DNA of 64,000 nt from Bacteroidales bacterium (GTDB lineage: Bacteria; Bacteroidota; Bacteroidia; Bacteroidales; UBA10428): contig JAFGQO010000052.1 in assembly GCA_016935615.1 (NCBI GenBank), forward strand, positions 30,175 through 94,174, written 5' to 3'. This document shows, piece after piece, positions 4,259 through 36,978 of the stretch. Both the position numbers and the translations under genes were made by a program. The notes under the pieces were generated by a model. The model was not told the DNA's origin. It did no database searches and saw nothing but the letters and a program-made list of their open reading frames with translations. Position 1 is the stretch's first letter; each line of letters opens with the position of its first letter.

Positions 4259-4270
4259 TTCGTTTTACCA

Positions 4271-5416: not shown

Positions 5417-5530
5417 TCCGGGTTTGATATAAGGATTAAGGAATCTTCCGGGAAGATGCAGTCTAAGTATCGCAGACAGACTTCCTGGAAATAACCAGCA
5501 GTATCCGCCAGATTCTTCTTTTCATATTAG

Positions 5531-5680
5531 GGATTGTCTCAAAAGGTAAATATTTTAATATAGCCACAAAGGCTCGAAGGCTCAAAGAATTCACAAAACT
5601 CTGATATTCAATTATATATAACTTTATGAGCATTTCATGAATTAGTGCCTTGGTGGCGAATTTTCAACTTTCAGGACAGC
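5531..5680. repeat. MITE-like intergenic element, sibling of the element at 7009-7254
   Basis: Starts with TTGTCTCAAAAGGTAAAT, compared with TTGTCTAAAAAGTAAAT at 7019. Internal inverted repeat GCCACAAAGGC (about 5563) / GCCTTGGTGGC (about 5647). CACAAA/CAAAG-rich core. Confidence 0.4.
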
Positions 5681-5978
5681 ATTTTTTAACCGATCTTGTT
5701 ATGATTTGTCAAATCCGCCAAACTGTTCAGATGATTTTACCTTGCATGCAACAAAAATACAGGTATATTTTTAATAAATAGCCTTGTTTTAATTAATACA
5801 CATTATTGTCACTACCCTACATATTAATAGGGGTATTGTATATATTTATTATATTTTTTGATGTATACCCTTATTTTTTTGATAGTTATTAACATAATAA
5901 TACATTTTTTTGTTTTTTCTTAATATATTTGCCATTAGAAAAGAAAGCGTTCAATCATTAACTTTTAATAGCTATAAT

Positions 5979-6989: not shown

Positions 6990-7008
6990 TCAGAAATTCT
7001 CTGAGAAC

Positions 7009-7254
7009 AAAAAAGAGGTTGTCTAAAAAGTAAATGTAACTATATAAAGAATAAATTTTTACTTTGTGTAACTTCTTGTCTGCTCTGTGAATCTCTGTGT
7101 AACAGTAATTTAAGTTATACAACAGTGCCTCTGCAGAGTAGCTTCAGCGCTCGCGGAAAGTTGCGTAAACCTGCCTGCCAGCCACAGGCTGGTAAACCGG
7201 CCAGGCAGGGAAGACACAAAGCCGCACAAAGACTCTTTGGACAACCTCTTTTTT
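7009..7254. repeat. MITE-like / terminator-embedded element between the two convergent glutamine synthetase genes
   Basis: A perfect 15-nt inverted repeat, AAAAAAGAGGTTGTC (7009-7023) / GACAACCTCTTTTTT (7240-7254), brackets 216 nt. The interior holds CACAGAG/CACAAAG repeats and a GC-rich hairpin block (about 7121-7215). Confidence 0.5.
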
Positions 7255-23154: not shown

Positions 23155-26100
23155 TTATCGGATAACAATTCCCTTCGTAATCATGATCTTTTCTGCGAAA
23201 ATCCTGATGAAGTATACTCCCGGAGATAAAACCGAAACATTCAGTTTCAGATCCTCATTCCCCGGATCTGCATAATGCTGTTCTGATATCAGCACATTCC
23301 CCAGCCTGTCAATTACCTCAATCGATAACTTTTTGTCATTCATTCCTGCCAATTGTATATGAAGAATATCAACTCCCGGATTTGGATAGATCTCTATCGA
23401 CCTGTTCATCATAGAATAAGGAATGGCATTTACATGAGTCACACTTACAGTAACAGTATCAGAGTTTTCGCATGAATTGCTATCCGTTACCATAAGCCAA
23501 TACGTATGATCGCCCACTCCTGCAACACTTCCGGAAACTTCGATACAGGACCCGTCAGAACCGGTACTCCACAAATACGAATAAGATTCATTATCCAATA
23601 GGGAAAGTACAACACTCCCCTGATCAGTTATGGTTGTATCGCTACCAAGATCGACCTCAGGCAATGAATATATGAATAGGCTGACCGGCATACAATCCCC
23701 TTCACACTCTTCAAGTGATTGGGTTACATAATAGGTATACGTTCCGGGTTCTGTTTGGGTAGCAGGAAATATGTTTCCCGAGTATATACAATTTGTAAGT
23801 GCTGTATCTGAATACCAATGGATATTTTCTCCCAGAGCAAACATATCCGGTGTTTCTTCTCCAAAGCAGACAGCCTGGTTTTCAGCGACCGGCAAATCCG
23901 GCACAGGCTTTATTGTAAGCTGAACTGACCTGTAATTGCTTTCACAACCGTTCACGCTCTGAGAAACATAATAGCTGATAGTTCCCGTATCTGATATTTC
24001 CGGTTGATAGACATTCCCTTCGGTCAATAATACATCATCCTTAATACATCTGACCGACATACTCTCTTTCGTATCAGCACTCATCCTCCGGATTCTGCTT
24101 TCGATAGAATGCAAATTCCTCTTCCAGGCAAATTCCTCCTGTTCAAGTGCAGATGTCCAGAAATAAGCCCATGAACCGATATTGTAGAATTCCTTATCCA
24201 GATAACGCGTTCCCCCGGGCAATGCTGTGAATCCGCTTTCATTTGTTGCCCCGGTATTGGGTTCCTTCCAGTACAGATCCGATTCTTCTTTTAATTTGCC
24301 TCCTTCATTCGTTCCTCTCCATTCTCCGGAAAGTGCTTCTGATACTTCCATTCCAAGGTAATTTTCCATTTGCCTCCATTCCCTGTCGGTCGGTATATGC
24401 CATCCTTCCGGACACAGTCCCCTGTTTACTTCATAGCCGGTATAATCCATAGCCTCATCCCACTGGTATAAACCTCCATAGGTGTCACAGTTCTCTTCGC
24501 TGTTATCATAACAATATTTTTCAGCAACCTCATTATTGGTTTGTTCCGTTGTATGACCGATCATAATACCGTAATTCAGGTTTTCAGCCATCCACCATTG
24601 ATCCCCGATCTTCACGGTCAGATATTCCTGTCCGTCCCTCGCATCCACAAGGGATACGATATCCGGATCGGCATACCATTTCACATTCTCTCCCTCTGCC
24701 TGCAACTGGATCGGATCCAGATTCTCACAAACACTCATGTTTTCCGAAACCGGGGCATCGGGCACAGGATAAATGGTCAGAATGACCGTGTCGGCCGGCG
24801 ATTCAACATCGTTGACGGTTTGGGTGACAAAGTAAACATAAGTGCCGGTATCTGTTAAAATAGGCTTGAGGGTATAACCTGAAGCAATTGGATCAGAAAT
24901 ATTTCTCATACAACGTACGGAATAACCATGACTGATATAAGCATTATCTTTATGTAAATCGGCGTTCCCATTTAATACAAGTCGAACCCATGCAACATTA
25001 CCAGTTTGCAAATCAGATGACCAGAAAACGCCACGATCACCAAGAAACCAAAACGTTTCTGAATCATAACTCTTTCTGCCAGCAGGCAAAGCTGTAAAAC
25101 CACTCTCATTGGTTGCCCCGGTATTTGGAGAATTCCAATGCAAAAAACCTTCCTCTTTCATTTTTCCTCCGGCAATTTCATCTCCTCCAAGATACTTACC
25201 TAAATCTATCCAGTCATTATCAGAAGGCAAACGATATCCATCGGGACAGACATCCATTGCAGTTTCCCAATTGTACAACCGGCCATAAACATCCGAATAC
25301 AAAATACTATCATTGTTGTAATACCAGGATCCGGATAAGGTATAAAAATTCAAATTTTCCTTCATCCAGGTTTGGTCATTGATAGTTACCATATTATAAA
25401 TATGATTGTCACGATAATCATATAAGTAACTGGGATTGGCATACCATTTTATATTTTCTCCCTGTGCAGTTAAAAGAACAGTATGTTGTTCTCCACATAA
25501 ATTAACATCTCCGGCAACAGGAGGCAAAGGTCGAATACTAAGTACTACAGTATCGGGATCGCTTTCGCACCCTGATATGTTTTGAGTAACATAGTAAGTG
25601 TATATACCGATATCAGTATGCCCTGTCGGGAAAGGACTCCCTGAATAAATCAAACCGGATAAATGAGGATCATTATACCACCGGATATTTTCACCCGATG
25701 CTGTTAAATCCGGGACAAATTCTCCTTCACATAGGGTAACATCATCTGCTGCCGGAGGCGGAATAACCGAGAGTATATTACCGTATGCATCCAAAGGTCC
25801 CATACATTCATCAGAATCGTCTCCGTCAGGTTCATCGGGACAATCGGGGCAATGTGCCGGTTTAAGACCCGTTCCCCAGGTATAATACCCGTCATTGTCC
25901 TGATCAATGCATCTGATATCAGAATCATTATAATTAACGGAATGTACCGGCCCATGCAAAGAATATACGTATATGCTACCCACTACATAAACATATCCGT
26001 CATTCCCCCAATAACTTCCCCAGCTATTCTTAAACAACCATGCCGTCTGACCAATTAATATGTCATCTTCAAGTATTGTTATCCAGGAGGTCGATCCGTT

Positions 26101-27357
26101 ATTATTAAGATAAATATGGTCACCTTCCTGCAACACTTTATATCCGACCAAAGTCATAGCATGGTTCCAAAAACCTACAGTTGCAGCAGTTGCCCCTTTA
26201 ATAATTTCCCTCTTTTTTTCATCTTCTGATGAATGTGCGCTTTTTGAATTGATTCTTACTATTTCAGCAGAATTAGTGCATTTATTCTCACATGGCAAGT
26301 CATTGGCAGCATAGGGAAAACAACTTTCATTCACAATTCCCGTATCCATAATATAGGTCAATGCACCATTAGGACTACCACCGGCACAACTACCAGCACC
26401 ACTGCATGATAAAACATCCTGTTCGGAAAGATCAGGATCCAGGTGTTGATTGTAATACAAATTCACCAGTAATTCAGTTGCGCCGGTAACGGCAAAAGCC
26501 CAGCAACTTCCGCACCCCCCCTGGTTTTTAACGGAAGTTACCCAGTTCTGCCCATGCCGGTTGCGCCAGCTGAATTCCTTTACAAAGGAAAATCCTGTTT
26601 TGGCTTGAGTGATGGACTTTATCTTATCCTTATCTGCATTCTCTTCAAGTACACCTGGCAAAACAAATATCCCTCCCCTGTAATATTCAAAACCCTGCAA
26701 ATTGGGTACTTTACCACCGAACATCTTCTTTTTTTCCTGGTATGTCATACATGAAACGGATGTTTCCCCGGCAATCCATTTTAGCCCTTTTCTTTCTATA
26801 TACTGATTTATTTTGTTAATTTTTTCCGATTGCTGTTGTTCTAATTTATTGGTTCTGGTCTTTGCAATAAAGGATTCTTCTCCTCTTGTTTCTATTTCTT
26901 TTAAATGAATGGAGGCATCCACTGTTTCAATAGTGATGCTCATCGGAATAATGTTATCCAATATTGCTGTTTCTTCCCCGGTCTGATCAATTTCAAAAGA
27001 CCCATTTTCTGTCAATAAGGGATATGCTTCATAAATAAGGTATTCATTCAACTTATAATCAATAAGGATCACCCGCACCAGGCTTGAATCGGAATACAAT
27101 TCAACAGAGGCTGAGATTGTCAATCCACTGATTTTTCGCTGATCGGTAAAAGGTCGCAACTGAATGTTTTTATCTGTACGGATATTCAATCCTATCCGTT
27201 GATCGGCCTCTTTCAGCATTTTAAAAGAACTCTTACCGGCCATTTGTGAATGGATCGTTGAAGACAAACAAAGAATACAAAACAGCATTAATATTTTTAG
27301 TAATAGTTTATCAATACTGTTAATCAGGATTTTAAAAGGTTTTGCAACTAACAACAT
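23155..27357 (-). CDS. T9SS-secreted multidomain protein: papain-like C1 cysteine peptidase, four Ig-like modules, two FISUMP (Fibrobacter succinogenes major paralogous) domains and a Por/T9SS C-terminal sorting domain
   Basis: C1 catalytic motifs are QGGCGSCWAF (Cys at about aa 285, nt about 26505), WNHAMTLVGY and NSWGSYWGNDGY. FISUMP signatures are YGRLYNW.....CP.G(Y/W)(R/H).P.D.(D/E)W, NTGATNESGFTALP.G and SVRC(M/I). The C-terminal IEIYPNPGVDILHIQL...GVYFIRI is T9SS-CTD-like. Confidence 0.8.
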   Translation of the reverse strand: MLLVAKPFKILINSIDKLLLKILMLFCILCLSSTIHSQMAGKSSFKMLKEADQRIGLNIRTDKNIQLRPFTDQRKISGLTISASVELYSDSSLVRVILIDYKLNEYLIYEAYPLLTENGSFEIDQTGEETAILDNIIPMSITIETVDASIHLKEIETRGEESFIAKTRTNKLEQQQSEKINKINQYIERKGLKWIAGETSVSCMTYQEKKKMFGGKVPNLQGFEYYRGGIFVLPGVLEENADKDKIKSITQAKTGFSFVKEFSWRNRHGQNWVTSVKNQGGCGSCWAFAVTGATELLVNLYYNQHLDPDLSEQDVLSCSGAGSCAGGSPNGALTYIMDTGIVNESCFPYAANDLPCENKCTNSAEIVRINSKSAHSSEDEKKREIIKGATAATVGFWNHAMTLVGYKVLQEGDHIYLNNNGSTSWITILEDDILIGQTAWLFKNSWGSYWGNDGYVYVVGSIYVYSLHGPVHSVNYNDSDIRCIDQDNDGYYTWGTGLKPAHCPDCPDEPDGDDSDECMGPLDAYGNILSVIPPPAADDVTLCEGEFVPDLTASGENIRWYNDPHLSGLIYSGSPFPTGHTDIGIYTYYVTQNISGCESDPDTVVLSIRPLPPVAGDVNLCGEQHTVLLTAQGENIKWYANPSYLYDYRDNHIYNMVTINDQTWMKENLNFYTLSGSWYYNNDSILYSDVYGRLYNWETAMDVCPDGYRLPSDNDWIDLGKYLGGDEIAGGKMKEEGFLHWNSPNTGATNESGFTALPAGRKSYDSETFWFLGDRGVFWSSDLQTGNVAWVRLVLNGNADLHKDNAYISHGYSVRCMRNISDPIASGYTLKPILTDTGTYVYFVTQTVNDVESPADTVILTIYPVPDAPVSENMSVCENLDPIQLQAEGENVKWYADPDIVSLVDARDGQEYLTVKIGDQWWMAENLNYGIMIGHTTEQTNNEVAEKYCYDNSEENCDTYGGLYQWDEAMDYTGYEVNRGLCPEGWHIPTDREWRQMENYLGMEVSEALSGEWRGTNEGGKLKEESDLYWKEPNTGATNESGFTALPGGTRYLDKEFYNIGSWAYFWTSALEQEEFAWKRNLHSIESRIRRMSADTKESMSVRCIKDDVLLTEGNVYQPEISDTGTISYYVSQSVNGCESNYRSVQLTIKPVPDLPVAENQAVCFGEETPDMFALGENIHWYSDTALTNCIYSGNIFPATQTEPGTYTYYVTQSLEECEGDCMPVSLFIYSLPEVDLGSDTTITDQGSVVLSLLDNESYSYLWSTGSDGSCIEVSGSVAGVGDHTYWLMVTDSNSCENSDTVTVSVTHVNAIPYSMMNRSIEIYPNPGVDILHIQLAGMNDKKLSIEVIDRLGNVLISEQHYADPGNEDLKLNVSVLSPGVYFIRIFAEKIMITKGIVIR

Positions 27358-27580: not shown

Positions 27581-29767
27581 GATCTGTTTTATTCAATTTT
27601 TCAATCAACCGAAGACGCCAGGTGGCGGCTGAGCTCGTGAGCGACAGCGAACAAACCACTCAAAAGAATGAAGTTTATATTGAGCCGGGAAAATCCCGAT
27701 ATATCTTATTCAATTTTTCAATCAAACCACAACTATCCTTAATCTGCTCTGCTATTCTTTTTAGATATATCTTATTCAATTTTTCAATCAAACCACAACA
27801 CACGGGAGGGGATGATGGGATAGGTTCTTGATATATCTTATTCAATTTTTCAATCAAACCACAACAAAGCTGCAACAGGAGTAACAGATACAGAAGATAT
27901 ATCTTATTCAATTTTTCAATCAAACCACAACCAACTTTCGGAGATAGTACAACGGCTGGGGATATATCTTATTCAATTTTTCAATCAAACCACAACCGCA
28001 TCAAGCTTGGTTTCAATCCTCGTTAGATATATCTTATTCAATTTTTCAATCAAACCACAACAGTAATTGAACCACTCCATGCAGAGATGCTGATATATCT
28101 TATTCAATTTTTCAATCAAACCACAACATGGTTATTAAAGAACTACGCTAAAGAGGGGATATATCTTATTCAATTTTTCAATCAAACCACAACATAGTAC
28201 ACGAAGGAATTTTTTTATTATTGATATATCTTATTCAATTTTTCAATCAAACCACAACCTCCAAAGCTGCTTTATCCTGCGGATCAGGATATATCTTATT
28301 CAATTTTTCAATCAAACCACAACTTGTCTATTATTATTGTTGTTTGCTGCTCGGATATATCTTATTCAATTTTTCAATCAAACCACAACAGAGTCTAGCT
28401 GTGCTATTGTTAATGTTTGGATATATCTTATTCAATTTTTCAATCAAACCACAACTGCTTCCATTCTGGTAAAAATCATAATCTGATATATCTTATTCAA
28501 TTTTTCAATCAAACCACAACGCTTTTAACAATAGAGGATCTGCGGGAAATGATATATCTTATTCAATTTTTCAATCAAACCACAACAAGAAAAAGGTCAA
28601 GGAAGAAAGATAACAGATATATCTTATTCAATTTTTCAATCAAACCACAACATAGTTAAATATCTGCTTTCCTGTGGTTATGATATATCTTATTCAATTT
28701 TTCAATCAAACCACAACGATCCTGTTATTGACCTCGTTTTTGAACCAGATATATCTTATTCAATTTTTCAATCAAACCACAACACAACTGTAACAGCTGC
28801 CTCTTCTTCTTAAGATATATCTTATTCAATTTTTCAATCAAACCACAACTGTTTCATGCGGTTTGTTTTAATATGTCTTGATATATCTTATTCAATTTTT
28901 CAATCAAACCACAACTAGATCTTGTCTATCCGTTAGGGAAAGGCAGATATATCTTATTCAATTTTTCAATCAAACCACAACTGGCTCTGGAACACGGATG
29001 CGACAGCATAGATATATCTTATTCAATTTTTCAATCAAACCACAACTCTCTAATCTGGATTCAGATTTAGTAGGCAGATATATCTTATTCAATTTTTCAA
29101 TCAAACCACAACTACAATACCGAAAATGATTACGGAATGGTAGATATATCTTATTCAATTTTTCAATCAAACCACAACCACCGGGCAGTACAGGATATCC
29201 AGTTTGAGATATATCTTATTCAATTTTTCAATCAAACCACAACCGTTTTAATACAGACAATTATGAGTTACTGATATATCTTATTCAATTTTTCAATCAA
29301 ACCACAACCATTTGCCAACGCTCATTTTATAACCATAAGATATATCTTATTCAATTTTTCAATCAAACCACAACGGACGTAGTCCGGATACTTTAAAAGT
29401 TAAAGATATATCTTATTCAATTTTTCAATCAAACCACAACACATCTCCATGAGTATATATTTGAGAATAGATATATCTTATTCAATTTTTCAATCAAACC
29501 ACAACATGCTTACTCTTTTTGAAACGATACTAATTGATATATCTTATTCAATTTTTCAATCAAACCACAACTCTTTCTTTCAGCATATTAACCCTCAACA
29601 GATATATCTTATTCAATTTTTCAATCAAACCACAACAACAAAAGGAATTAATTGAATTAGGCAAAGGATATATCTTATTCAATTTTTCAATCAAACCACA
29701 ACTGTTTTGATATCAATAATGTATAAACGTTGATATATCTTATTCAATTTTTCAATCAAACCACAAC
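27581..29767 (-). CRISPR. CRISPR array: 32 identical 36-nt repeats plus one degenerate terminal repeat, 29-30-nt spacers
   Basis: The plus-strand repeat is GATATATCTTATTCAATTTTTCAATCAAACCACAAC. In crRNA sense (minus strand) it reads GTTGTGGTTTGATTGAAAAATTGAATAAGATATATC. Full repeats run from 27698-27733 to 29732-29767, with 31 unique 29-30-nt spacers counted by hand. A degenerate repeat (29/36 identities) lies at 27581-27616, at the end distal to cas2. Confidence 0.97.
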
Positions 29768-29906: not shown

Positions 29907-30245
29907 TTAAAATATCTCCAGTTGCTGCGGCCCCTGCGGAAGCGGCAAGGTTTTAGCACCCCAGAAATTAATAATGTCTCCGTATTGCTTATCGGTAATA
30001 AGCAGGATACTTACCTGTCCTTCTTCCGGCACTGCCGATTTTATCCGGCGTACATGCACATCTGCGCTTTCGCGGCTGGCACAATGCCTCGTGTACACAG
30101 AATATTGCATCATATTAAAACCGTCACGTTCCAGACCTTTGCGAAACAGTGTTGCCTTACGTCTTTGTTTTTTCGTCACTACCGATAAATCAAAAAATAC
30201 AAAAACCCACATGATGTGATATGCATTTAACCGTTCCCGTTCCAT
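29907..30245 (-). CDS. cas2: CRISPR-associated endoribonuclease Cas2 (type II)
   Basis: 112 aa. YHIMWVFVFFDLSV.TKK.RR.A..FRK.L..DGF.M.Q.SVY.R.C is typical of type II Cas2. It lies immediately downstream of cas1. Confidence 0.9.
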   Translation of the reverse strand: MERERLNAYHIMWVFVFFDLSVVTKKQRRKATLFRKGLERDGFNMMQYSVYTRHCASRESADVHVRRIKSAVPEEGQVSILLITDKQYGDIINFWGAKTLPLPQGPQQLEIF

Positions 30246-30271
30246 TCATTATGTTATATTTGTTACCCCAA

Positions 30272-30300
30272 CTCTGTCAGGGTTCAAAACCCTGAAAGAG
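30272..30300. repeat. REP-like palindrome copy a (cas1/cas2 junction)
   Basis: CTCTGTCAGGGTT-CAA-AACCCTGAAAGAG forms a 13-bp stem with one mismatch. It sits in the 58-nt gap between the cas1 stop (30304) and the cas2 ATG (30245). Confidence 0.75.
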
Positions 30301-30303
30301 TTT

Positions 30304-31239
30304 TTACTTCAAAACCGGATAATCTATCTTCTTCTGGCTACCTGAAAAGCACCGGGCAAGTGAAGCAGTTGTTTGCGAAAGACCCACCATTAACGGGCGG
30401 GTGGTCTTACCGAAATGCACATCGCGTACCAGCACATTGAGCAGTTCGGCCTTAATTTCTTTTTCCAGGTCTTCCAGTCCCGGATAACTTCCGGCAAGCT
30501 GAAAAACCTGTTCGTCCACAAAAGGACGGTAGGGCTCCATAATGTCGTCGGCCAGGCAATACGCATTATAGCGGTTATGATGATGTATGCCGAACGTGGG
30601 CATTAATCCGCTGCCCGTAAGTGCCCTTGCCACGGCAGCGCGTAGCACAATATACCCGTAATTCAGAAAATTGTTTGGAAACGGACCATAGCGCTCTCGT
30701 GTAAACCCTTCACCAAAAAGCCTTGTCCAGTACAATCGTGCAGCCACACCTTCCCGGCCGGTCGAATCGTCGCTTTTCACATCTTTTGCCAGGGTCTGGA
30801 TATCATTCCATTCTTTTCCCAACTTATCCAGTAACCGTGCCTGGTTGGTTATTTTGGCCTCAACTGTTTGCTTCCATAACCCTTTTTTCAGAGGTTCACT
30901 GATCGACACCTGCTGCCGGAATAACTCTCCCTGCAAATGATTTCCCTCCAGCGGAAAAAGCATGGAATGCGGCATGTGGCTGCTGTTACAAAAAATAACA
31001 GCCACGTTATTAGCTGCTAATTCATCAAGTAATGGCATGCTTATAATGATTTGCTTATGTTCCAGTACTACAAAACCCAGGTCTTCAACCGGAATTGTTG
31101 TTTTATCACCACTTTGCGGATCACTCACCCCTGACAGGGTTTGAAACCCTGTCAGGGGTTCAATCCTGTTTACTATAAGCTGTTTGTTTTTAACTGACAA
31201 ATAGCAGGGGGTTGAAAAATAAACTGTTCTTTTGAGCAT
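30304..31239 (-). CDS. cas1: CRISPR-associated endonuclease Cas1 (type II)
   Basis: ATG at 31239 (MLKRTVYFSTPCYLSVKNKQLIV, a typical type II Cas1 N-terminus). The 25-codon upstream extension in the track ORF is read through a palindrome and is rejected. Conserved Cas1 C-terminal core motifs are GIHH.NRYN.Y.LADD.MEP.RP.VD. Confidence 0.9.
   Translation of the reverse strand: MLKRTVYFSTPCYLSVKNKQLIVNRIEPLTGFQTLSGVSDPQSGDKTTIPVEDLGFVVLEHKQIIISMPLLDELAANNVAVIFCNSSHMPHSMLFPLEGNHLQGELFRQQVSISEPLKKGLWKQTVEAKITNQARLLDKLGKEWNDIQTLAKDVKSDDSTGREGVAARLYWTRLFGEGFTRERYGPFPNNFLNYGYIVLRAAVARALTGSGLMPTFGIHHHNRYNAYCLADDIMEPYRPFVDEQVFQLAGSYPGLEDLEKEIKAELLNVLVRDVHFGKTTRPLMVGLSQTTASLARCFSGSQKKIDYPVLK
31128..31158. 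repeat. REP-like palindrome copy b (in-frame inside cas1)
   Basis: CCCCTGACAGGGTTT-G-AAACCCTGTCAGGGG is translated on the minus strand as EPLTGFQTLSGV. Confidence 0.85.
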
Positions 31240-31261
31240 GGTTATATGTTTTTCTCTTGCG

Positions 31262-31292
31262 CCCCTGTCAGGGTTCGGAACCCTGACAGAGG
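31262..31292. repeat. REP-like palindrome copy c (23 nt upstream of the cas1 ATG)
   Basis: CCCCTGTCAGGGTT-CGG-AACCCTGACAGAGG. This is the stem variant with the T:A pair flipped relative to copies b, d, e and f. Confidence 0.8.
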
Positions 31293-31316
31293 TCAGATAG
31301 TTGTCTGCAAACACTC

Positions 31317-31349
31317 AACGCTGACAGGGTTCTAAACCCTGTCAGCGTT
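31317..31349. repeat. REP-like palindrome copy d (flanks the 3' end of the RAYT gene)
   Basis: AACGCTGACAGGGTT-CTA-AACCCTGTCAGCGTT forms a perfect 15-bp stem. It is identical to copy f except for one loop base. Confidence 0.9.
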
Positions 31350-31360
31350 ACAAATAACAT

Positions 31361-32014
31361 TTAAAAGATCTTTTCTATTCCGGTTAATTCCGGAGGGTAT
31401 TTATGACAGTAAATAGAGTTCTCTTTATCATCGAACCATTCAATAATATCATTTTTCCTGATTATACCTGGTTTATCAGAAACGATTGCATTATATGATG
31501 AATATTCCCAATCCCGGGGATCAGCACAAAAACTGGCTTCCACAGGATTAAAATGAATGCAATGAACCAACTTGTAAAGGTAATTCTCATCGTCTATTGC
31601 CCTGCGCTTAAAAGGTCTGTTAAACAAACTTCCAATACGGCTTTGCTGCTTATTAAAAGCCTGGGTGTAAGCATTGAATAAATTTGAAAACTGTTTGCTA
31701 AAGAAGTTGGAGATGAGTTGTTGCTTTCTCAACCCTGACAGGGTTTCGAACCCTGTCAGGGTTTGGCTATGATTGACTTTTTCTTTCAGATACCTGACAA
31801 CCTCCCGTTTGTTTCTGATTTTAATCAGTAAATGAAAATGATTAAGAAGAAGACAATAACAAAAAGTATGGGCGACAGGATAGATAAAATCCTGATAACG
31901 TTTCATAAAATACCGGTAATTATCATCTGAGGTGTAAAGCTTCTCGTTACCAACAGCCCGGTTGTAAATATAGTAAGTCTTTTCCGGTTCCAGTATGTCT
32001 GTATATTTGTTCAT
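31361..32014 (-). CDS. REP-associated tyrosine transposase (RAYT) / IS200-like Y1 HUH transposase
   Basis: 217 aa. The HUH motif lies in LLLNHFHLLIK. The C-terminal GSLFNRPFKRR...YLYKLVHCIHFNPV carries the catalytic-Tyr helix pattern of COG1943-type proteins. The gene is flanked by palindromes. Confidence 0.8.
   Translation of the reverse strand: MNKYTDILEPEKTYYIYNRAVGNEKLYTSDDNYRYFMKRYQDFIYPVAHTFCYCLLLNHFHLLIKIRNKREVVRYLKEKVNHSQTLTGFETLSGLRKQQLISNFFSKQFSNLFNAYTQAFNKQQSRIGSLFNRPFKRRAIDDENYLYKLVHCIHFNPVEASFCADPRDWEYSSYNAIVSDKPGIIRKNDIIEWFDDKENSIYCHKYPPELTGIEKIF
31731..31763. repeat. REP-like palindrome copy e (in-frame inside the RAYT ORF)
   Basis: AACCCTGACAGGGTT-TCG-AACCCTGTCAGGGTT is translated on the minus strand as QTLTGFETLSGL, between the HUH and Tyr motifs. 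Confidence 0.85.
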
Positions 32015-32042
32015 GGTTATCCTTGAACTTTTAATTTAACCA

Positions 32043-32075
32043 AACGCTGACAGGGTTCGAAACCCTGTCAGCGTT
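32043..32075. repeat. REP-like palindrome copy f (between the cas9 stop and the RAYT ATG)
   Basis: AACGCTGACAGGGTT-CGA-AACCCTGTCAGCGTT forms a perfect 15-bp stem. Confidence 0.9.
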
Positions 32076-32146
32076 AAATTGTCTTTTGCATCTTTTATCC
32101 CAATAAATAGCAGAGTATCGAAAATACATAGCTCGTTTAATCATGG

Positions 32147-35100
32147 TTATATCTTTATTATTTCCCCTAATGCTGTTATTTTAAAATCTACACCCTCTAT
32201 AACAGCATTAAAATTTGTATGTATAAATTTTCTATATAAAACAATTGGCTCATTTAGTTCAAATTTTCCATCTTTTACTTTAAGATCACTCTGAGAAATT
32301 GCACATTGATGAAACAAACAAAAAATTACAGCATATTTACCACTTTCTCCAAAACTCTTTATTTCGTATAACCGTTTTTGCAATTCAGAATAATCTTTCC
32401 AATTAATATCATCAATATTTTCATTTTTTTGTAATAAAAGAATAAATAAATCTTGTTTGAGCATTTGCTTTAGTTCCAAATAACATTTTTTACTTCTATG
32501 CTCAAAATAATCATTGATGGGAAGAGTTACATCATTTTCATGGGAATTTAATAGACGACCAACATCTAAATTATTTAAAAAACGATATTTAACAATTTTA
32601 TCATCTGAATATATCCCTAACAAATAATTCCCATCATTATCCACATATGTTTTTTCTTTGTAATCTTTCCCAAATTTTTCAATTCTTTTTTTGTGTTTTT
32701 TTGATTTGTGTGAATTTTCTTTAAGAGGAATTGCAGTTAAATAACCTTTAGCTTTTATCTGGCGGCATCTAATGGTTTTAATTATCATTTCTTTTTTTCC
32801 ATCCTCTACTGGCAACACTATTTGTCCTTTGCTTTTTACGTTTTTTAATCCATATTTTAATATTCTGTCTTGAATCCCTTTGTCAACAATATTTTTAATT
32901 CCTGATTCATTTAAGTTTTCTATGGGCATTCTTTTTACATACCAATCCTCATATACTATATCATCATTTTCGTTCTTTTTAATTTGATTTTTGCTATCTA
33001 GCATTGGACGTTTTATTTTTCCAAAGAAAAAATCTTTATGCAATTTATCCCGAATGCCAGTTGTAATATTATTCGCTTTATCATTATGCCATGTATACCG
33101 CGCTTCTTTCTCAAATACTACTTTACCGTCTTTGTCTTTTACAAACTCATATCCTTTTAAATTAATAGTCCCTTCAGTTTCTCTGTATTCATCAAAACTG
33201 TTTAAAACTTTAATGTTTTGTTTATTATCGACTTTAAAAATATGCAGTATAAAATCAGGGGTCACATCGTTTCGCTTTCCTTTTACGGGAACATTTTTCC
33301 CATTAATATCGGTTTTGTATTTCCACTCAAGTACTTTAATGCTTCCATTAGTGTCTTTTTCAATTTGGTCAGCGCGATGTACAATTTTACCCCGAACACG
33401 TATCTTTTTTTTCGTTTGTTTCTTTAAATTATCCTTGATACGATGAGAAACTAAAATGCTTTCACGTAGATTTTGCATATCAATCAAAAAGTTTTCCCAA
33501 GGTATTAGCTGTTCTCTGGCCTCTACGATCTGTTCCTTTAGTTTTTTAGTCCCCTCGCTTTTTTCTTCTTTATTAAAATGTAAGGCTTTTTTAAGAAGTT
33601 CTTGTAAATAGTAATAGCGCTCTAACTTTTTCAATGTCTCTGGTTTTCTGCGTGCAAAACCAACAAGACAGGCACAATATACAGCGTCAATAGTGTGATG
33701 GACATGGTTGTCACGGCTTTTCTCATATCCTGTAATTTTTCTAAACTCGTCTACAAATAAAGAGCTAATATTGAAAACATTGTTAAAAGCACTTTTAAGA
33801 TATAATAAAGCATATTTGTTTATAATACCTATGTCTGTTAATTGACGATTCTTAAAATCATCAGTTACTTCTGTAAGTTTGAAATTGTTCACTTTCTTTT
33901 GCCAATAGTCAAGATGCATTTTTAAATAGTGACGTTCTTGAATATTGTGGTTTTTAGTGGCTTTATCATGTATGTTTTTTCCTTTACGTTTTAAATCCTC
34001 AATCCTATCTTCCAGTATCTCCACTTTTTTTTCCCAACGTTTTATGAATGTAAGAATTCTATCGTAATCATTACCCAATTCCGATGGGAGTTTATTCCCT
34101 TTTATGCTTCGATTGTAATAACTTTCAGCAATGGTCTTATTTGATAGAGAGTTATCAAATGATTTACTTAAAGGAATAGTATGTTCAATGTCATGTTTAT
34201 TACCATTTATTAAATCGGCCATTCCAATTTGATTCCCGGTATATATACAAATTCCATTCTGCTCCCTCCAAAGACGATACTTTTCGATAGCATAGTCGGG
34301 CAATTTCATCCTTTTTTCTCTTTTTGTAAACTGAGCTGTATGGATTTCCAACTTGTTATAAAATTGTTCTGCTTCGTTTTCGTCTTCCAATTGTTCTACC
34401 CAGAATTTAATTTTGTCTTTTTCATCATTTCCCGGTTGAATATCCAGCTTATTCTCTTTATAGAACTCAACCAATAAATTTTTGTAAAATTCATTCTCTG
34501 TTTCCCTCTCTTTTTGAAAACGTTCAATAGCCTTTCGCATATTATAATCATTCACATCTCTTCCTAATTCAACAACAATCTGAGTTTCATCATCAATAAC
34601 ATTATTGATTAACAATGCATTTATCACTTTCCTTAACTCGCACATAGCACGCATAAACAGGGGATTCTTAATAGAATTTATTAAAGGACTTTTCAGTAAA
34701 CGTACCCCATTTTTGTTAGGTTCTACTTTTGGATAAAATTCAATGGCAGACGGGTGATAAATTTTCTTTGCTTTTTCTTCTTCTATTGCCAATTCATTTA
34801 TTAAATAATCCTGAACTTGTTGCTTTATACTTTTTGTCTTTATAAAAGAACCACCAATATTTCCTGATTGTAATTGTCTCTCAAAATCGGCCTCAACTTC
34901 AGCTATTATTTTATTTCGAATTTCCTGTTCAAAACCATTCCATGTTTTTTCTCCATACTTTTTTAAAAACTGTTTTAACACAATCTCTTTGTCTCTATCA
35001 TCTAAACAATATTTTGTGTGCGCATTTTTTGATTCATTTCTGAAAATAGCAATACAATCATTGACAATATCATTTTTCTTTTTTTCATAGGAGTATTTAT

Positions 35101-36559
35101 CGAAAATACTATTAACATCTTCTAAAATATCATCAGGAATATTTTCTCCTTTTGAAAGTTCTAAAATATCTGGTATTTTGGCCAACAATATTGCTTTGTC
35201 AGGTCGATACCCTTCTATTAGAAATGGCATTATTTTGCCAATTGCTTTAAAACTTAGATTTGCATAACCTTGTTTTATAGGGGCATTAATGAACCTTTCA
35301 GCTTTATCATCACCTAACCCAAACTTATTTTTAGCAATGTCTATTAATGGTCCATCCGCTTTATCCTGAATAAAATGATCAAAAAACATGTGCCAAATAT
35401 CACGGATATCGATATATTTATTTTCTCCCTTTTTATTTTTACCATTATAAAATTTTACGGATTTCCAATCTTCCCCAAACAAATCTTTCAAGTGAGCGCT
35501 TACTGGGCAGCCACTAACCGTTGTTGTATCTTTATAGTTAAATTCATAGATTCCGGTTTTATCAATCATATTATGTATATCTTCAAACTTAAAAGTGCCT
35601 TTGCTTTTTCGATAAAAAAGAGGTAAAATATTTTCTTCAATGCTTATACCAAAATATGTTTGCTCTCTCAATGATTTAAAATTCTTCTTCTCTTCGCCAA
35701 CTTTTTTAATTTTGATATTATTGATAAAAGAATACATCCTGTATTCTTCAAATTCGATAGAACTTAAAGGGCATCGGGATTTACCGGTTTCAAAAACACA
35801 TTTTCCCACATTCCCTTTTTGAGACTTTAAAGGCCGAGCTTCAAAAATTGTCTTTCTAACTTCCTTAATAAATTCTTCCGATAAATTTTGATGTCGACAA
35901 ATTGCGTGAAAATCCAGTTCCAACGTTTTTCGGGAAATTTTATTTTCTTCAGTAGTATTTCGAATTCTTTCTGCCTTTATATGCTTTTGATACAGAATCT
36001 TACTCTTTGGAATATCTCCATATTCTTCTTCGTATTCTTTGTGATACTCAATATCTTTGGGTAAACTTTTTTTGTTTGTACTAACTTCTGTGGCACTTAA
36101 CAGGGATAAAGTATCCTTTTTATTGCTTTTAAATCCTCTTCGTTGTGTTAAGTGATAGAAAATTCGTCCCAATTCTTTTTTTGATAATTTTTCTCCATCG
36201 ACTGCCCTTTTTCTCAATTCATAGGGATTTAATTTAAACCATTCTATAAGTTTCTCTCGAACCGGATAACTTCGTTTTTTATGCCAAGAAGTTAATTCAT
36301 CATCCTCAAAAGGATGGAACTCTTTCCCTAATAATCGTAAAAGTTCAATTTTCCTGCCTTTTCTTCTATAATTTAATTTTCTAGCACCTCTATGAGAGGT
36401 TCTTTCTGCTGCTCTTGATGAATCCTGATATTCATCTCCATAACCTCTTTGAAATATCCTTACACCTTTTTCTTTTAGTTCCAATTTTCCTTCTTTATTT
36501 TCCACCACTGCCCAACCAATGCTGTTGGTCCCTAGGTCAAGTCCTAAAATTTTTGCCAT
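32147..36559 (-). CDS. cas9: CRISPR-associated endonuclease Cas9 (type II-C, 1470 aa)
   Basis: RuvC-I is MAKILGLDLGTNSIGWAVV. The Arg-rich bridge helix is RTSHRGARKLNYRRKGRK. RuvC-II is IVVELGRD. HNH is DIEHTIPLSKSFDNSLSNKT....YNRSIKGNKLP. RuvC-III is NHVHHTIDAV. There is no csn2 or cas4 in the locus. Confidence 0.97.
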   Translation of the reverse strand: MAKILGLDLGTNSIGWAVVENKEGKLELKEKGVRIFQRGYGDEYQDSSRAAERTSHRGARKLNYRRKGRKIELLRLLGKEFHPFEDDELTSWHKKRSYPVREKLIEWFKLNPYELRKRAVDGEKLSKKELGRIFYHLTQRRGFKSNKKDTLSLLSATEVSTNKKSLPKDIEYHKEYEEEYGDIPKSKILYQKHIKAERIRNTTEENKISRKTLELDFHAICRHQNLSEEFIKEVRKTIFEARPLKSQKGNVGKCVFETGKSRCPLSSIEFEEYRMYSFINNIKIKKVGEEKKNFKSLREQTYFGISIEENILPLFYRKSKGTFKFEDIHNMIDKTGIYEFNYKDTTTVSGCPVSAHLKDLFGEDWKSVKFYNGKNKKGENKYIDIRDIWHMFFDHFIQDKADGPLIDIAKNKFGLGDDKAERFINAPIKQGYANLSFKAIGKIMPFLIEGYRPDKAILLAKIPDILELSKGENIPDDILEDVNSIFDKYSYEKKKNDIVNDCIAIFRNESKNAHTKYCLDDRDKEIVLKQFLKKYGEKTWNGFEQEIRNKIIAEVEADFERQLQSGNIGGSFIKTKSIKQQVQDYLINELAIEEEKAKKIYHPSAIEFYPKVEPNKNGVRLLKSPLINSIKNPLFMRAMCELRKVINALLINNVIDDETQIVVELGRDVNDYNMRKAIERFQKERETENEFYKNLLVEFYKENKLDIQPGNDEKDKIKFWVEQLEDENEAEQFYNKLEIHTAQFTKREKRMKLPDYAIEKYRLWREQNGICIYTGNQIGMADLINGNKHDIEHTIPLSKSFDNSLSNKTIAESYYNRSIKGNKLPSELGNDYDRILTFIKRWEKKVEILEDRIEDLKRKGKNIHDKATKNHNIQERHYLKMHLDYWQKKVNNFKLTEVTDDFKNRQLTDIGIINKYALLYLKSAFNNVFNISSLFVDEFRKITGYEKSRDNHVHHTIDAVYCACLVGFARRKPETLKKLERYYYLQELLKKALHFNKEEKSEGTKKLKEQIVEAREQLIPWENFLIDMQNLRESILVSHRIKDNLKKQTKKKIRVRGKIVHRADQIEKDTNGSIKVLEWKYKTDINGKNVPVKGKRNDVTPDFILHIFKVDNKQNIKVLNSFDEYRETEGTINLKGYEFVKDKDGKVVFEKEARYTWHNDKANNITTGIRDKLHKDFFFGKIKRPMLDSKNQIKKNENDDIVYEDWYVKRMPIENLNESGIKNIVDKGIQDRILKYGLKNVKSKGQIVLPVEDGKKEMIIKTIRCRQIKAKGYLTAIPLKENSHKSKKHKKRIEKFGKDYKEKTYVDNDGNYLLGIYSDDKIVKYRFLNNLDVGRLLNSHENDVTLPINDYFEHRSKKCYLELKQMLKQDLFILLLQKNENIDDINWKDYSELQKRLYEIKSFGESGKYAVIFCLFHQCAISQSDLKVKDGKFELNEPIVLYRKFIHTNFNAVIEGVDFKITALGEIIKI

Positions 36560-36602: not shown

Positions 36603-36688
36603 AAAAAATCAATTTTTCAATCTTATCACAATAAGGCTATATGCCGAAGGATATTAAATCCTGTAACCCCGCTTCGGTGGGGTTTTTT
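36603..36688 (+). ncRNA. tracrRNA (divergent from cas9); ends are approximate
   Basis: The anti-repeat UCAAUUUUUCAAUCUUAUCACAAU (36609-36632) pairs with crRNA repeat nt 1-24 (GUUGUGGUUUGAUUGAAAAAUUGA). That gives 22 pairs including two G:U, interrupted by a 2-nt U:U internal mismatch. Next come a nexus-like GGC-UAUAU-GCC, the hairpin AGGAU-AUUAA-AUCCU and the terminator CCCCGC-UUCG-GUGGGG plus U6, ending at 36688. Confidence 0.85.
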
Positions 36689-36978
36689 ATGTGACTATAC
36701 AACACTTCCTTGTACTCAGAAAAACAACTTTTATTCAGGAGTTACTTTATAATTGCCTTATTACGTTTCTATTATGATATGCAAAGAATTACAATTATTA
36801 AGTCAAGTTAACAAATTACTTCTTTATTGCCAAAAAGCATCAAGCCTGAAGTCGACTATTTACATGAGCCATTAACGTTTAAGATGAAGATCATTAAAAA
36901 TAGTGAACCAAAGTTTTATAATTAACGTCCATTCCGCATTGGAAAAGGGAATTGTTCTGGAATATGCGATATCTTTGT

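What the first reader, a model, noticed from the sequence alone, without database searches (positions are those of the whole stretch)
30272..32075. A REP-like palindrome family and its Y1 (RAYT/IS200-like) transposase are embedded inside a type II-C cas operon
Six copies of a palindrome with core CTGACAGGGTT-N3-AACCCTGTCAG (11-15-bp stems) occur within 1.8 kb.
- 30272-30300: the cas1/cas2 junction.
- 31128-31158: inside cas1.
- 31262-31292 and 31317-31349: between the transposase stop and the cas1 ATG.
- 31731-31763: inside the transposase ORF.
- 32043-32075: between the cas9 stop and the transposase ATG.

The two 33-nt copies bracketing the 217-aa ORF are identical except for one loop base. 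The ORF carries an HUH motif (NHFHLL) and a Y-motif helix (YLYKLVHCIHFNPV). Together this is the REP-RAYT-REP arrangement known for REP-associated tyrosine transposases.

I saw no other clean copy in the remaining 62 kb or so, so the family looks concentrated on the cas operon rather than dispersed. cas9 and cas1, normally adjacent in II-C loci, are separated here by 907 nt.

The parsimonious reading is selfish invasion of the cas operon. The more interesting reading is a functional association. For example, an ssDNA-hairpin-cutting HUH enzyme could be coupled to adaptation, or the hairpins could act as operon punctuation or processing sites between the effector and adaptation modules.
Basis: partly seen in the sequence, partly recalled or inferred. 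Interest (0 to 1): 0.85.

Follow-up and report, generated by a model that had tools for sequence, protein, structure and literature searches.

The report
REP-hairpin transposase living inside Cas9 operons
A REP-type hairpin family and its tyrosine-transposase gene (RAYT) sit inside this Cas9 operon as an old, inherited arrangement that recurs in many Bacteroidota CRISPR loci and marks the point where cas9 genes have been swapped, though this copy has lost its catalytic tyrosine.

Summary
Six copies of a 33-nt palindrome lie at the stated coordinates (0 expected by chance). The 217-aa ORF is a RAYT-like HUH/Y1 protein by profile and by fold.

- **Dead active site.** The residue that aligns with the catalytic Tyr115 of E. 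coli TnpA_REP is Cys152 in this copy. It is Tyr in the relatives aligned.
- **Restricted here, dispersed elsewhere.** The 3.8-Mb MAG holds no other copy of the palindrome. The same palindrome occurs in at least 120 metagenome contigs. None of the 80 fetched carries a cas gene.
- **Not a one-off insertion.** Loci with Y1 69-77% and Cas1 86-96% identical keep the same hairpins at the same junctions. Synonymous sites there are diverged to near saturation (dS 0.4-1.2). Compensatory changes preserve the stems.
- **Recurrent link to CRISPR.** 14 of 80 species-level loci of this Y1 family lie in type II cas loci, and three more lie next to cas4 or cas6. In a 400-genome phylum sample, 6 of 68 genomes with a type II Cas1 have the Y1 within about 3 kb of it (about 0.06 expected).
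- **cas9 swap boundary.** Homology to sister loci starts exactly at the hairpin after cas9. The cas9 genes are unrelated, GC content jumps, and a decayed cas1 5' stub remains.

A REP inside the RAYT gene is already published. I found no paper on the CRISPR association. No evidence shows a role in CRISPR function.

The parts
27698..29767 (-). CRISPR array: 32 copies of a 36-nt repeat with spacers of about 30 nt
29907..30245 (-). cas2 (112 aa)
   Evidence: Pfam CRISPR_Cas2, E 3e-18
30272..30300 (.). Hairpin E in the cas1/cas2 spacer. It is a degenerate copy of the T variant (central pair flipped to T-A) and folds at -18.8 kcal/mol.
   Evidence: Sister loci L006 and L009 have a hairpin at the same junction, as do unrelated loci L011, L021, L066 and L219 with other hairpin sequences.
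30304..31239 (-). cas1 (311 aa from the ATG at 31239), type II
   Evidence: NCBIfam cas1_NMENI, 300 bits against a cut-off of 120
31127..31159 (.). Hairpin D, in frame inside cas1. It encodes PLTGFQTLSG in a variable loop of the N-terminal domain.
   Evidence: Contigs of relatives carry cas1 alleles without it, a net difference of 48 nt.
31262..31292 (.). Hairpin C, T variant (central pair flipped to T-A), between the Y1 stop and the cas1 start
   Evidence: L006 has the same variant at the same position.
31317..31349 (.). Hairpin B, the 3' flank of the Y1 gene
   Evidence: It is 100% identical to L006:5364-5396.
31361..32014 (-). RAYT-like HUH/Y1 gene (217 aa). The HUH motif is NHFH at residues 58-61. 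The catalytic position is Cys152, not Tyr.
31731..31763 (.). Hairpin in frame inside the Y1 gene. It encodes TLTGFETLSG in a low-confidence loop between helices.
   Evidence: REPs inserted in the tnpA_REP gene are a published trait of RAYT subclass 2.4 (PMC6006769).
32043..32075 (.). Hairpin A, the 5' flank of the Y1 gene. It is the left edge of DNA homology to the sister loci and the point where GC content jumps.
32076..32144 (-). Decayed cas1 5' stub directly after the cas9 stop. It keeps its ATG and the first 23 codons and has a 1-nt deletion.
   Evidence: L006 has a better-preserved stub (cas1 residues 1-38, 82% identical, E 1e-13).
32147..36559 (-). cas9 (1470 aa), 27-32% GC against 39-47% for Y1-cas1-cas2
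36605..36698 (+). Candidate tracrRNA, divergent from cas9: an anti-repeat followed by a GC stem and a T-run
   Evidence: Read directly from the sequence. The segment 36510-36700 is 79% identical to L006. No experimental support.

Best explanation
A REPtron lives as a long-standing resident inside this type II-C operon. A REPtron is a RAYT-type HUH/Y1 gene together with its cognate 33-nt REP hairpins.

**Shown**
- The hairpins belong to the Y1 gene. Across the family, flanking and internal hairpins match within a locus and differ between loci.
- The whole layout was already present in the common ancestor of three loci whose synonymous sites are now diverged to near saturation. That layout is: cas9, hairpin, Y1 with an internal hairpin, hairpin(s), cas1 with an internal hairpin, hairpin, cas2.
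- The hairpin stems have been preserved through compensatory changes.
- Members of this Y1 family occur in CRISPR-cas loci far more often than chance would give. They sit in several different positions and on several branches of the Y1 tree.
- In this lineage and two others, cas9 was exchanged while the upstream tracrRNA-side flank and the Y1-cas1-cas2-array module stayed in place. Here the right-hand breakpoint is hairpin A, and a cas1 5' stub from the cas9 donor remains.

**Inferred**
- An active ancestor enzyme seeded hairpins locally by single-strand cleavage and joining. Copies survived only where they are harmless, that is between ORFs or in frame in surface loops.
- The element persists by travelling with a frequently transferred, selected operon.
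- Its hairpins act as portable recombination sites between loci that share them.
- In this genome the enzyme is catalytically dead (Tyr152Cys). This may be why no copy has spread outside the operon, though recent arrival of the operon would explain that as well.
- The module probably arrived by transfer or recombination from a lineage in which this palindrome is a dispersed REP.
For: **Identity of the ORF.** NCBIfam REP_Tyr_transpos matches across the full profile. A family profile hits 4er8. The best fold match is 4er8_A at E 7.5e-7, followed by the IS608 and ISDra2 TnpA structures. H59 and H61 are invariant in 61 homologues.

**Family-wide REP-RAYT-REP pattern and internal hairpin.**; published for subclass 2.4.

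**Orthologous conservation.**
- Positions are conserved in L006 and L009.
- Gene dS is 0.43-1.24, yet 96.9% of hairpin cells stay paired, three pairs show compensatory changes, and 0 of 500 shuffles reach this.
- Y1 dN/dS is 0.17-0.25.

**Recurrence.**
- 14 of 80 species-level loci are in type II cas loci.
- L032 and L061 lie next to cas4, and L033 lies between cas6-like ORFs. L009 holds a second Y1 next to a type I-B module.
- In the phylum sample, 6 of 79 strong Y1 copies lie within about 3 kb of a type II cas1, in 5 families, against about 0.06 expected.
- The closest Cas9 relatives also have a Y1 between cas9 and cas1.
- The Y1 tree needs at least 4 changes of the 'in a cas locus' label, and 11 by parsimony.

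**Module swap.**
- Homology to L006 and L009 starts at 32071-32078.
- Cas1 is 96% identical to L006 but Cas9 only 27-29%.
- GC rises from 27-32% to 39-47%.
- The cas1 stubs are real.
- The same pattern appears in L093/L095 and L066/L071.
- In-situ cas9 exchange in type II-C is published without a named mechanism (PMC12669027).

**Dead enzyme and no spread.**

**Same palindrome dispersed elsewhere.**
Against: - No enzymology or transcript data exist for any member.
- Y1 and the cas genes are co-oriented in every cas9-Y1-cas1 locus seen, and the position between cas9 and cas1 keeps recurring. Pure hitch-hiking does not obviously explain either. Both could reflect target preference, strand bias of Y1 transposition, or real function.
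- Hairpin conservation at high dS needs selection or continued homogenisation, which a dead enzyme cannot supply in this genome.
- In L093/L095 the swap boundary lies at the 5' end of Y1 and no strong hairpin was detected there. Hairpins are therefore not required for cas9 exchange.
- I did not test whether loci with a Y1 swap cas9 more often than loci without one.
- The Tyr-to-Cys change rests on one MAG consensus. The only run covering it is the probable source.
Confidence: 0.55

Rival explanations
1. The hairpins are kept by the host as RNA or DNA punctuation of the operon. Very stable stem-loops at each gene junction would protect upstream mRNA from 3' exonucleases or create processing sites. 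That would set different levels of cas9, cas1 and cas2, as E. coli REPs do between cistrons. On this view the Y1 gene is only their source.
For: - Hairpins sit at every junction here and in sister loci.
- In unrelated loci, hairpins of other sequence families sit at the same junctions: after cas9, between cas1 and cas2, and after cas2.
- Stems are conserved through compensatory changes while dS is about 1.
- Folding energies are -19 to -29.5 kcal/mol.
- In this genome the hairpins persist although the enzyme lacks its tyrosine.
Against: - The same palindrome is dispersed in contigs without cas genes.
- No T-run follows the hairpins on the coding strand, so they are not intrinsic terminators for the operon.
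- Two copies lie inside ORFs, where punctuation makes little sense.
- REPs in general favour intergenic sites between co-directional genes (PMC3733652), so the placement may be mere tolerance.
- No transcript data are available.
Confidence: 0.2
2. The Y1 protein is a recruited CRISPR accessory. It would act as a single-strand, hairpin-specific nuclease or binder that feeds or guides Cas1-Cas2 adaptation, or that actively catalyses exchange of cas9 cassettes at the hairpins.
For: - The gene recurs in a co-oriented, operon-internal position directly upstream of cas1 in many lineages.
- It also lies next to cas4-cas1 or cas6 in other CRISPR types.
- It is under purifying selection, with dN/dS 0.17-0.25.
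- About 9% of genomes with a type II Cas1 in the phylum sample carry it next to that cas1.
Against: - About 80-90% of family members are not near cas genes.
- Members in cas loci are scattered on the Y1 tree.
- Y1 and Cas1 distances show no correlation (Mantel r about -0.05 to -0.16).
- The position within loci varies: before cas9, between cas9 and cas1, between cas1 and cas2, after cas2, or on the opposite strand.
- Every member, linked to cas or not, keeps the ordinary REPtron layout.
- This copy lacks the catalytic tyrosine.
Confidence: 0.12
3. A recent, one-off selfish insertion of a RAYT element into this particular cas operon, with no wider pattern.
For: - All six copies and the only Y1 gene of the genome lie within 1.8 kb.
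- The GC content of the module differs from that of its surroundings.
Against: - Sister loci share the whole layout at dS up to 1.2.
- Many unrelated lineages show the same architecture.
- The excess near cas genes is roughly a hundredfold in an unbiased sample.
Confidence: 0.03

Closest known systems
REPtrons: REP-associated tyrosine transposases (RAYT, TnpA_REP; E. coli YafM, PDB 4er8) with flanking REPs
   Same: - HUH/Y1 fold, with 4er8 as the best structural match.
- HUH histidines, and a YxxxNP helix in the family.
- A single gene copy per genome.
- Flanked on both sides by its own hairpin.
- Hairpin and enzyme co-vary between genomes.
   Different: - Below the curated NCBIfam cut-off, and no Pfam Y1_Tnp hit.
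- No GTAG or CGTC tag at the foot of the hairpin (read).
- The WQ motif of TnpA_REP aligns with LF(M/N) here.
- Copy number is low: 3-16 exact copies per genome in relatives and 6 here, all local.
- This copy has Cys at the catalytic Tyr.
RAYT subclass 2.4 of Quentin et al. 2018 (PMC6006769), equal to group 4 of Bertels et al. 2017
   Same: - Found in Bacteroidetes and Cyanobacteria.
- About 194 aa long, with an NH[IFV]H motif.
- REP sequences inserted inside the tnpA_REP gene itself.
- Low REP copy number, about 14 occurrences for group 4.
   Different: - The published Y motif is YIxNNP and the W motif is WQ. This family has YIH[YFH]NP and no WQ.
- I did not place this family in their tree.
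- Neither paper mentions CRISPR-cas neighbourhoods.
In-situ exchange of cas9 in type II-C loci of Flavobacteriales (Makarova et al. 2025, PMC12669027, Extended Data Fig. 9)
   Same: Closely related cas1, cas2 and array joined to distantly related cas9. Here Cas1 is 96% and Cas9 27-29% identical to L006.
   Different: The paper names no breakpoints or mechanism. Here one breakpoint is mapped to a REP hairpin beside a RAYT gene, and a cas1 5' stub from the donor remains.
IS200/IS605 elements: TnpA (Y1) with IscB or TnpB, the ancestors of Cas9 and Cas12
   Same: A Y1 HUH gene lies next to an RNA-guided nuclease gene, with single-strand DNA hairpins as the transposase's substrates. The IS608 and ISDra2 TnpA structures are the next-best fold matches.
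   Different: - The enzyme is of the RAYT clade, not the IS200 clade.
- Cas9 here is a full-size 1470-aa effector with cas1, cas2, an array and a tracrRNA.
- No left-end and right-end hairpins bound the unit.
- Nothing suggests the locus transposes.
REPs and Rickettsia palindromic elements inserted in frame in protein genes (Di Nocera et al. 2013, PMC3733652)
   Same: Palindromes are tolerated inside ORFs as short in-frame peptide inserts. Here both ORF-internal copies read LTGF(Q/E)TLSG and lie in loops.
   Different: The host genes here are cas1 and the transposase itself. The paper lists mainly replication and repair genes.

Membership tests
RAYT / TnpA_REP (HUH Y1 transposase clade) | HUH metal-binding motif | tested here: met
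   NHFH at residues 58-61. H59 and H61 are invariant in 61 homologues. The motif corresponds to H59-M60-H61 of TnpA_REP.
RAYT / TnpA_REP (HUH Y1 transposase clade) | Catalytic tyrosine on helix alpha-D, four residues before the N of the NP motif | tested here: not met
   The family's Y in the motif v-h-Y-I-H-x-N-P aligns with Y115 of 4er8. The window protein has Cys152 (codon TGC). L006 has TAC and L009 has TAT. The family meets this feature; this copy does not.
RAYT / TnpA_REP (HUH Y1 transposase clade) | Y1 transposase fold | tested here: met
   AlphaFold2 model with pLDDT 90.9. The best Foldseek match is 4er8_A (E 7.5e-7, probability 1.00, TM-score 0.66 by target), followed by IS608, ISDra2 and IS200 TnpA.
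RAYT / TnpA_REP (HUH Y1 transposase clade) | Curated profile thresholds | tested here: not met
   NCBIfam NF047646 scores 49.9 bits against a cut-off of 80. Pfam PF01797 gives no hit even at E 10, although a few homologues carry a precomputed PF01797 hit.
RAYT / TnpA_REP (HUH Y1 transposase clade) | Gene flanked by its cognate REP hairpins, and single copy per genome | tested here: met
   Hairpins A and B flank the gene. There is one Y1 copy in the MAG. The same layout is typical of the 80 species-level loci.
RAYT / TnpA_REP (HUH Y1 transposase clade) | REPs dispersed through the host genome | tested here: not met
   There are six copies, all in the cas locus, at up to 3 mismatches. Relatives hold 3-16 exact copies, some of them dispersed.
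RAYT / TnpA_REP (HUH Y1 transposase clade) | [quoted passage not shown] | tested here: not met
   None of the six copies or their orthologues has GTAG or CGTC at the foot of the stem (sequences).
RAYT / TnpA_REP (HUH Y1 transposase clade) | Binds and cleaves single-stranded REP DNA | not testable with these tools
   Needs purified protein and oligonucleotide substrates.
RAYT subclass 2.4 (Quentin et al. 2018) | REP inserted inside the tnpA_REP gene | tested here: met
   The hairpin at 31731-31763 is in frame. About a third of the loci carry a clear internal copy at nt 130-300, and the LxGFxxLxG peptide is conserved across the family.
RAYT subclass 2.4 (Quentin et al. 2018) | Motif signature NH[IFV]H / WQ / YIxNNP, and placement in their tree | tested here: inconclusive
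   NHFH fits. The W motif (LF[MN]) and the Y motif (YIH[YFH]NP) do not match the published consensus. No joint phylogeny was made.
Type II-C CRISPR-Cas | cas9, cas1 and cas2 with an array and a tracrRNA, and no csn2 or cas4 | tested here: met
   Cas9 matches TIGR01865 and Cas1 matches cas1_NMENI above its cut-off. Cas2 matches Pfam. There are 32 repeats and a candidate tracrRNA. Between cas2 and the array no ORF of 60 aa or more lies clear of cas2.
CRISPR-ancillary gene | Family mostly confined to cas neighbourhoods and co-evolving with cas genes | tested here: not met
   Only about 8-21% of family members are near cas genes. There is no correlation between Y1 and Cas1 distances. The cas-linked members are scattered on the Y1 tree.

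The most novel reading that the evidence does not exclude
The RAYT and its REP hairpins form a cassette-exchange device for CRISPR loci. Hairpins at module borders, with or without the Y1 enzyme acting on single-stranded DNA, would let Bacteroidota swap cas9 effector genes against a fixed adaptation module and array. The recurrent presence of this transposase family in type II-C and some type I loci would then be a selected partnership rather than hitch-hiking.
Probability: 0.15. Interest if true: 0.85.

Novelty: new variant of a known kind. Interest (0 to 1): 0.62.

Why it matters
RAYTs are thought to be domesticated transposases, but their benefit to the host is unknown. Exchange of cas9 against a fixed adaptation module has been reported without a mechanism. 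This locus and its relatives link the two.

- One RAYT family is about a hundredfold enriched inside CRISPR-cas operons of Bacteroidota.
- Its hairpins sit at the module borders.
- One mapped cas9-swap breakpoint is such a hairpin, and it retains a scar from the donor.

If the link is causal, it would give a molecular handle on effector shuffling, which bears on escape from anti-CRISPR proteins and on PAM diversity. It would also give RAYTs a testable host-level role. If it is only hitch-hiking, it is still a clean case of a REP system spreading with a defence operon. It also warns annotators that in-frame REP inserts occur in cas1.

Tried and rejected
- **Sequence searches with no result.** Pfam on the whole ORF and on both halves without the hairpin segment gave no hit, even at E 10. 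A single-sequence phmmer search against PDB gave none; the family profile was needed.
- **Rfam.** Only chance-level matches far below the gathering scores, none of them an explanation.
- **Terminators.** The hairpins are not followed by T-runs on the coding strand. Weak matches appear only on the antisense strand.
- **Complex prediction, Cas1 with Y1.** No verdict, and not used as evidence either way.
- **Expression.** No RNA holder is listed for this stretch, and the two metatranscriptome runs of the same study held next to none of its words. No inference was drawn.
- **Reads.** Only Logan contigs were available. Start, end and minor-variant questions, including independent confirmation of the Tyr-to-Cys codon, could not be addressed. 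Joints between hairpins (30212 to 31129, and 31760 to 32047) had short sides of 21-25 nt and were not trusted.
- **Co-phylogeny.** Y1 and Cas1 identity matrices do not correlate. At 35-55% identity this test is weak, so it counts only mildly against single-origin co-inheritance.
- **A cas9 3' relic upstream of the real cas1 start.** Rejected. The motif ATAWAACYATG precedes cas1 in all loci compared, so it is a conserved start context.
- **Hairpins bracketing the whole locus as a transposon.** This is the case in L021 and L218. In the window there is no copy upstream of cas9 or beyond the array.
- **Tree.** The careful tree search did not finish, so the quick IQ-TREE tree was used.


Full report
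**1. Observation**

The window carries a type II-C locus on the minus strand:
- cas9, 32147-36559
- a 217-aa ORF, 31361-32014
- cas1, 30304-31239
- cas2, 29907-30245
- an array of 32 repeats of 36 nt, 27698-29767

A candidate tracrRNA lies divergently upstream of cas9.

The pattern CTGACAGGGTT-N3-AACCCTGTCAG matches six times at up to 3 mismatches, all at the coordinates given. None of 100 shuffles produced a match. As RNA, five copies fold at -25.6 to -29.5 kcal/mol with z-scores of -5 to -8. The degenerate copy at the cas1/cas2 junction folds at -18.8 kcal/mol with z -3.5. The two copies flanking the ORF differ by one loop base. The two copies inside ORFs are in frame and read LTGF(Q/E)TLSG.

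**2. The ORF**

- Pfam gives nothing.
- NCBIfam REP_Tyr_transpos matches across its whole length at E 3e-13, but below its cut-off.
- A 20-sequence family profile hits TnpA_REP, PDB 4er8.
- An AlphaFold2 model built on 61 homologues has pLDDT 90.9. Its best PDB match is 4er8_A at E 7.5e-7, followed by the IS608, ISDra2 and IS200 transposases.

The protein is therefore a RAYT-like HUH/Y1 protein.

In the profile alignment, the family's tyrosine in the motif v-h-Y-I-H-x-N-P aligns with Y115. The structure paper names that residue as the catalytic tyrosine (PMC3479197). The window protein has Cys152 there (codon TGC), while L006 has TAC and L009 has TAT. This copy should be unable to form the covalent phosphotyrosine intermediate. 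The substitution rests on a single MAG consensus.

**3. Dispersed or restricted**

In the window's own assembly (3.8 Mb, 95.6% complete) there are only these six copies, even with both central-base variants and 3 mismatches. There is one Y1 gene.

Elsewhere the same palindrome is common:
- In the probable source run, dozens of contigs carry it with unrelated flanks.
Of the 80 fetched (484 kb), 7 carry a Y1 gene and none carries a cas gene.

In relatives, cognate hairpins number 3-16 exact copies per genome. Some cluster at the Y1 gene and some are dispersed. This fits the low copy numbers published for RAYT group 4.

**4. The family**

Of 451 homologues, most are 190-220 aa and come from Bacteroidota. 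In 80 species-level loci, the gene is typically flanked on both sides by a roughly 33-nt palindrome. The palindrome's sequence differs between genomes but matches within a locus. About a third of the loci have a clear copy inside the ORF at nt 130-300. The peptide LxGFxxLxG is conserved at that place across the family.

REP insertion inside tnpA_REP is a published hallmark of RAYT subclass 2.4, found in Cyanobacteria and Bacteroidetes (PMC6006769). That part of the finding is known. The motif signature does not fully match the published one, so I leave the subclass assignment open.

**5. Not a one-off**

The two closest Y1 homologues (77% and 69% identical) also lie between cas9 and cas1.
- L009 keeps all five of its hairpins at the window's positions: after cas9, inside Y1, after Y1, inside the same cas1 loop, and between cas1 and cas2.
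- L006 keeps five as well, including both copies between Y1 and cas1. Half of its Y1-internal copy is deleted in frame.

Gene dS is 0.43-0.53 to L006 for Y1 and cas1, but 0.10 for cas2. It is 1.08-2.1 to L009. Cas1 dN/dS is 0.04-0.08 and Y1 dN/dS is 0.17-0.25.

Even so, 96.9% of hairpin cells remain paired, and three pairs show compensatory changes (AU/CG, CG/GC, AU/UA). None of 500 shuffles reaches this. The variants are largely position-specific across loci, which indicates orthologous inheritance rather than recent re-seeding.

The cas1 insert lies in a variable loop and is confined to this lineage. Contigs of relatives carry cas1 alleles without it.

**6. Recurrence across lineages**

Among the 80 species-level loci, 14 have type II cas genes within 8 kb:
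- cas9-Y1-cas1-cas2: seven loci
- cas9-cas1-Y1-cas2: three loci
- Y1 after cas2: one locus
- Y1 before cas9: one locus
- Y1 on the opposite strand: one locus
- Y1 next to a degraded cas1: one locus

Three more loci lie beside cas4 or between cas6-like ORFs. L009 holds a second Y1 next to a type I-B module.

That set was ranked by similarity to the query, so I also drew an even sample of 400 genomes across the phylum.
- 68 of them have a type II Cas1.
- There are 79 strong Y1 copies.
- In six genomes, from five families, a Y1 lies within about 3 kb of cas1.
- My estimate from genome sizes is about 0.06 expected by chance.

All six were confirmed. Five have the cas9-Y1-cas1-cas2 order, each with its own hairpin sequence. 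One of them has a hairpin inside cas1 at a different site.

The closest relatives of this window's Cas9 (61% and 52% identical) also carry a Y1 between cas9 and cas1. Their hairpins, of other families, sit at every junction.

On the Y1 tree the 'in a cas locus' label needs 11 changes, at least 4 of them forced by well-supported branches. Y1 and Cas1 distances do not correlate. Several independent associations are therefore likely, with co-inheritance over short ranges.

I found no paper that reports this association.

**7. Module mosaic**

DNA homology between the window and L006 or L009 begins at 32071-32078, inside hairpin A, and runs into the array. Upstream, only 36510-36700 matches L006. 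That stretch is the tracrRNA side plus the first codons of cas9.

- Cas1 and Cas2 are 96% identical to L006, but Cas9 only 27-29%.
- GC content is 27-32% across cas9 and 39-47% across Y1-cas1-cas2.
- Directly after the cas9 stop lies an ATG followed by about 70 nt. This stretch aligns with cas1 5' ends, has a 1-nt deletion, and ends at hairpin A.
- L006 has a better-preserved stub (cas1 residues 1-38, 82% identical). Its hairpin is of the cas1-internal type.

The simplest reading is recombination between a hairpin inside the donor's cas1 and the resident hairpin A. This joined a foreign cas9, plus a stub, to the resident Y1-cas1-cas2-array module. For the window's own donor, an internal hairpin is not shown.

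The same pattern of conserved flanks around a replaced cas9 appears in L093/L095 and L066/L071. This matches the in-situ cas9 exchange reported for type II-C, for which no mechanism was given (PMC12669027). In L093/L095 no strong hairpin marks the boundary, so hairpins are not required.

**8. Mechanism and verdict**

Best supported: a REPtron that has long resided in this operon lineage.
- Its hairpins survive between ORFs or in loops.
- It travels with the operon.
- At least here, it supplies a recombination site at the border between the effector and adaptation modules.
- In this genome its enzyme is dead and the family has not spread.

Open: whether the hairpins are kept for an RNA-level role in the operon, and whether the enrichment in CRISPR loci reflects target preference, hitch-hiking or function.

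The internal-REP RAYT is known. Two parts appear new: the recurrent embedding in CRISPR-cas operons, and the mapped link to a cas9 swap. I rate this a new variant of a known kind, of moderate to high interest.

Noticed in passing
window 36605-36698 (+): Candidate tracrRNA, divergent from cas9. It has an anti-repeat complementary to the first 24 nt or so of the CRISPR repeat, then stem-loops and a GC hairpin with a T-run. The segment is 79% identical to L006 even though the two Cas9 proteins are only 27-29% identical. This raises the question of how such different Cas9s use nearly the same guide scaffold and repeat.
   Followed up: partly
L218:8952-9608, L219:9241-9897, L217:8964-9263: A conserved ORF of about 218 aa with no Pfam family lies between cas9 and the Y1 gene in the loci of the closest Cas9 relatives. 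It is absent from the window and could be a CRISPR-linked accessory gene.
   Followed up: no
L009:5942-6673 and 6686-9261: A second, distant Y1 homologue (34% identical) lies directly upstream of a type I-B cas6b-cas1-cas2-cas4 module, on the same contig as the type II-C locus.
   Followed up: partly
L033:6994-9321; L032:8001-10331; L061:7357-8555: Y1 genes lie between two cas6-like ORFs (L033) or directly upstream of cas4 (L032 and L061; L032 also has a non-type-II cas1 further on). The link with CRISPR loci is therefore not limited to type II.
   Followed up: partly
L017, L020, L024, L034, L080 (Y1 flanks): One clade of Y1 genes sits in a conserved DeoC-Y1-aldehyde dehydrogenase neighbourhood. 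L017, L020 and L080 carry the same CTGACAGGG/CTGTCAGGG palindrome family as the window, without any cas gene. This may be the kind of lineage in which that REP is native.
   Followed up: no
L021:3543-3575 and 12104-12136; L218:3665-3697 and 11865-11897: In some loci, cognate hairpins also bracket the whole cas9-to-cas2 (and array) unit, as the ends of a transposon would. The window does not show this.
   Followed up: no
window 23155-27357 (-): A 1400-aa secreted protein with a papain-like peptidase C1 domain, Fib_succ_major and Ig-like domains, and a type IX secretion C-terminal sorting domain lies just beyond the array. The sorting domain fits a Bacteroidota host.
   Followed up: no
L066 and L071 (cas9 region, about 3000-8000): In these two Paludibacter loci the longest cas9 reading frames are only 589 and 670 aa, so cas9 may be broken there. 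L071 also has about 1.4 kb of extra DNA between Y1 and cas1.
   Followed up: no
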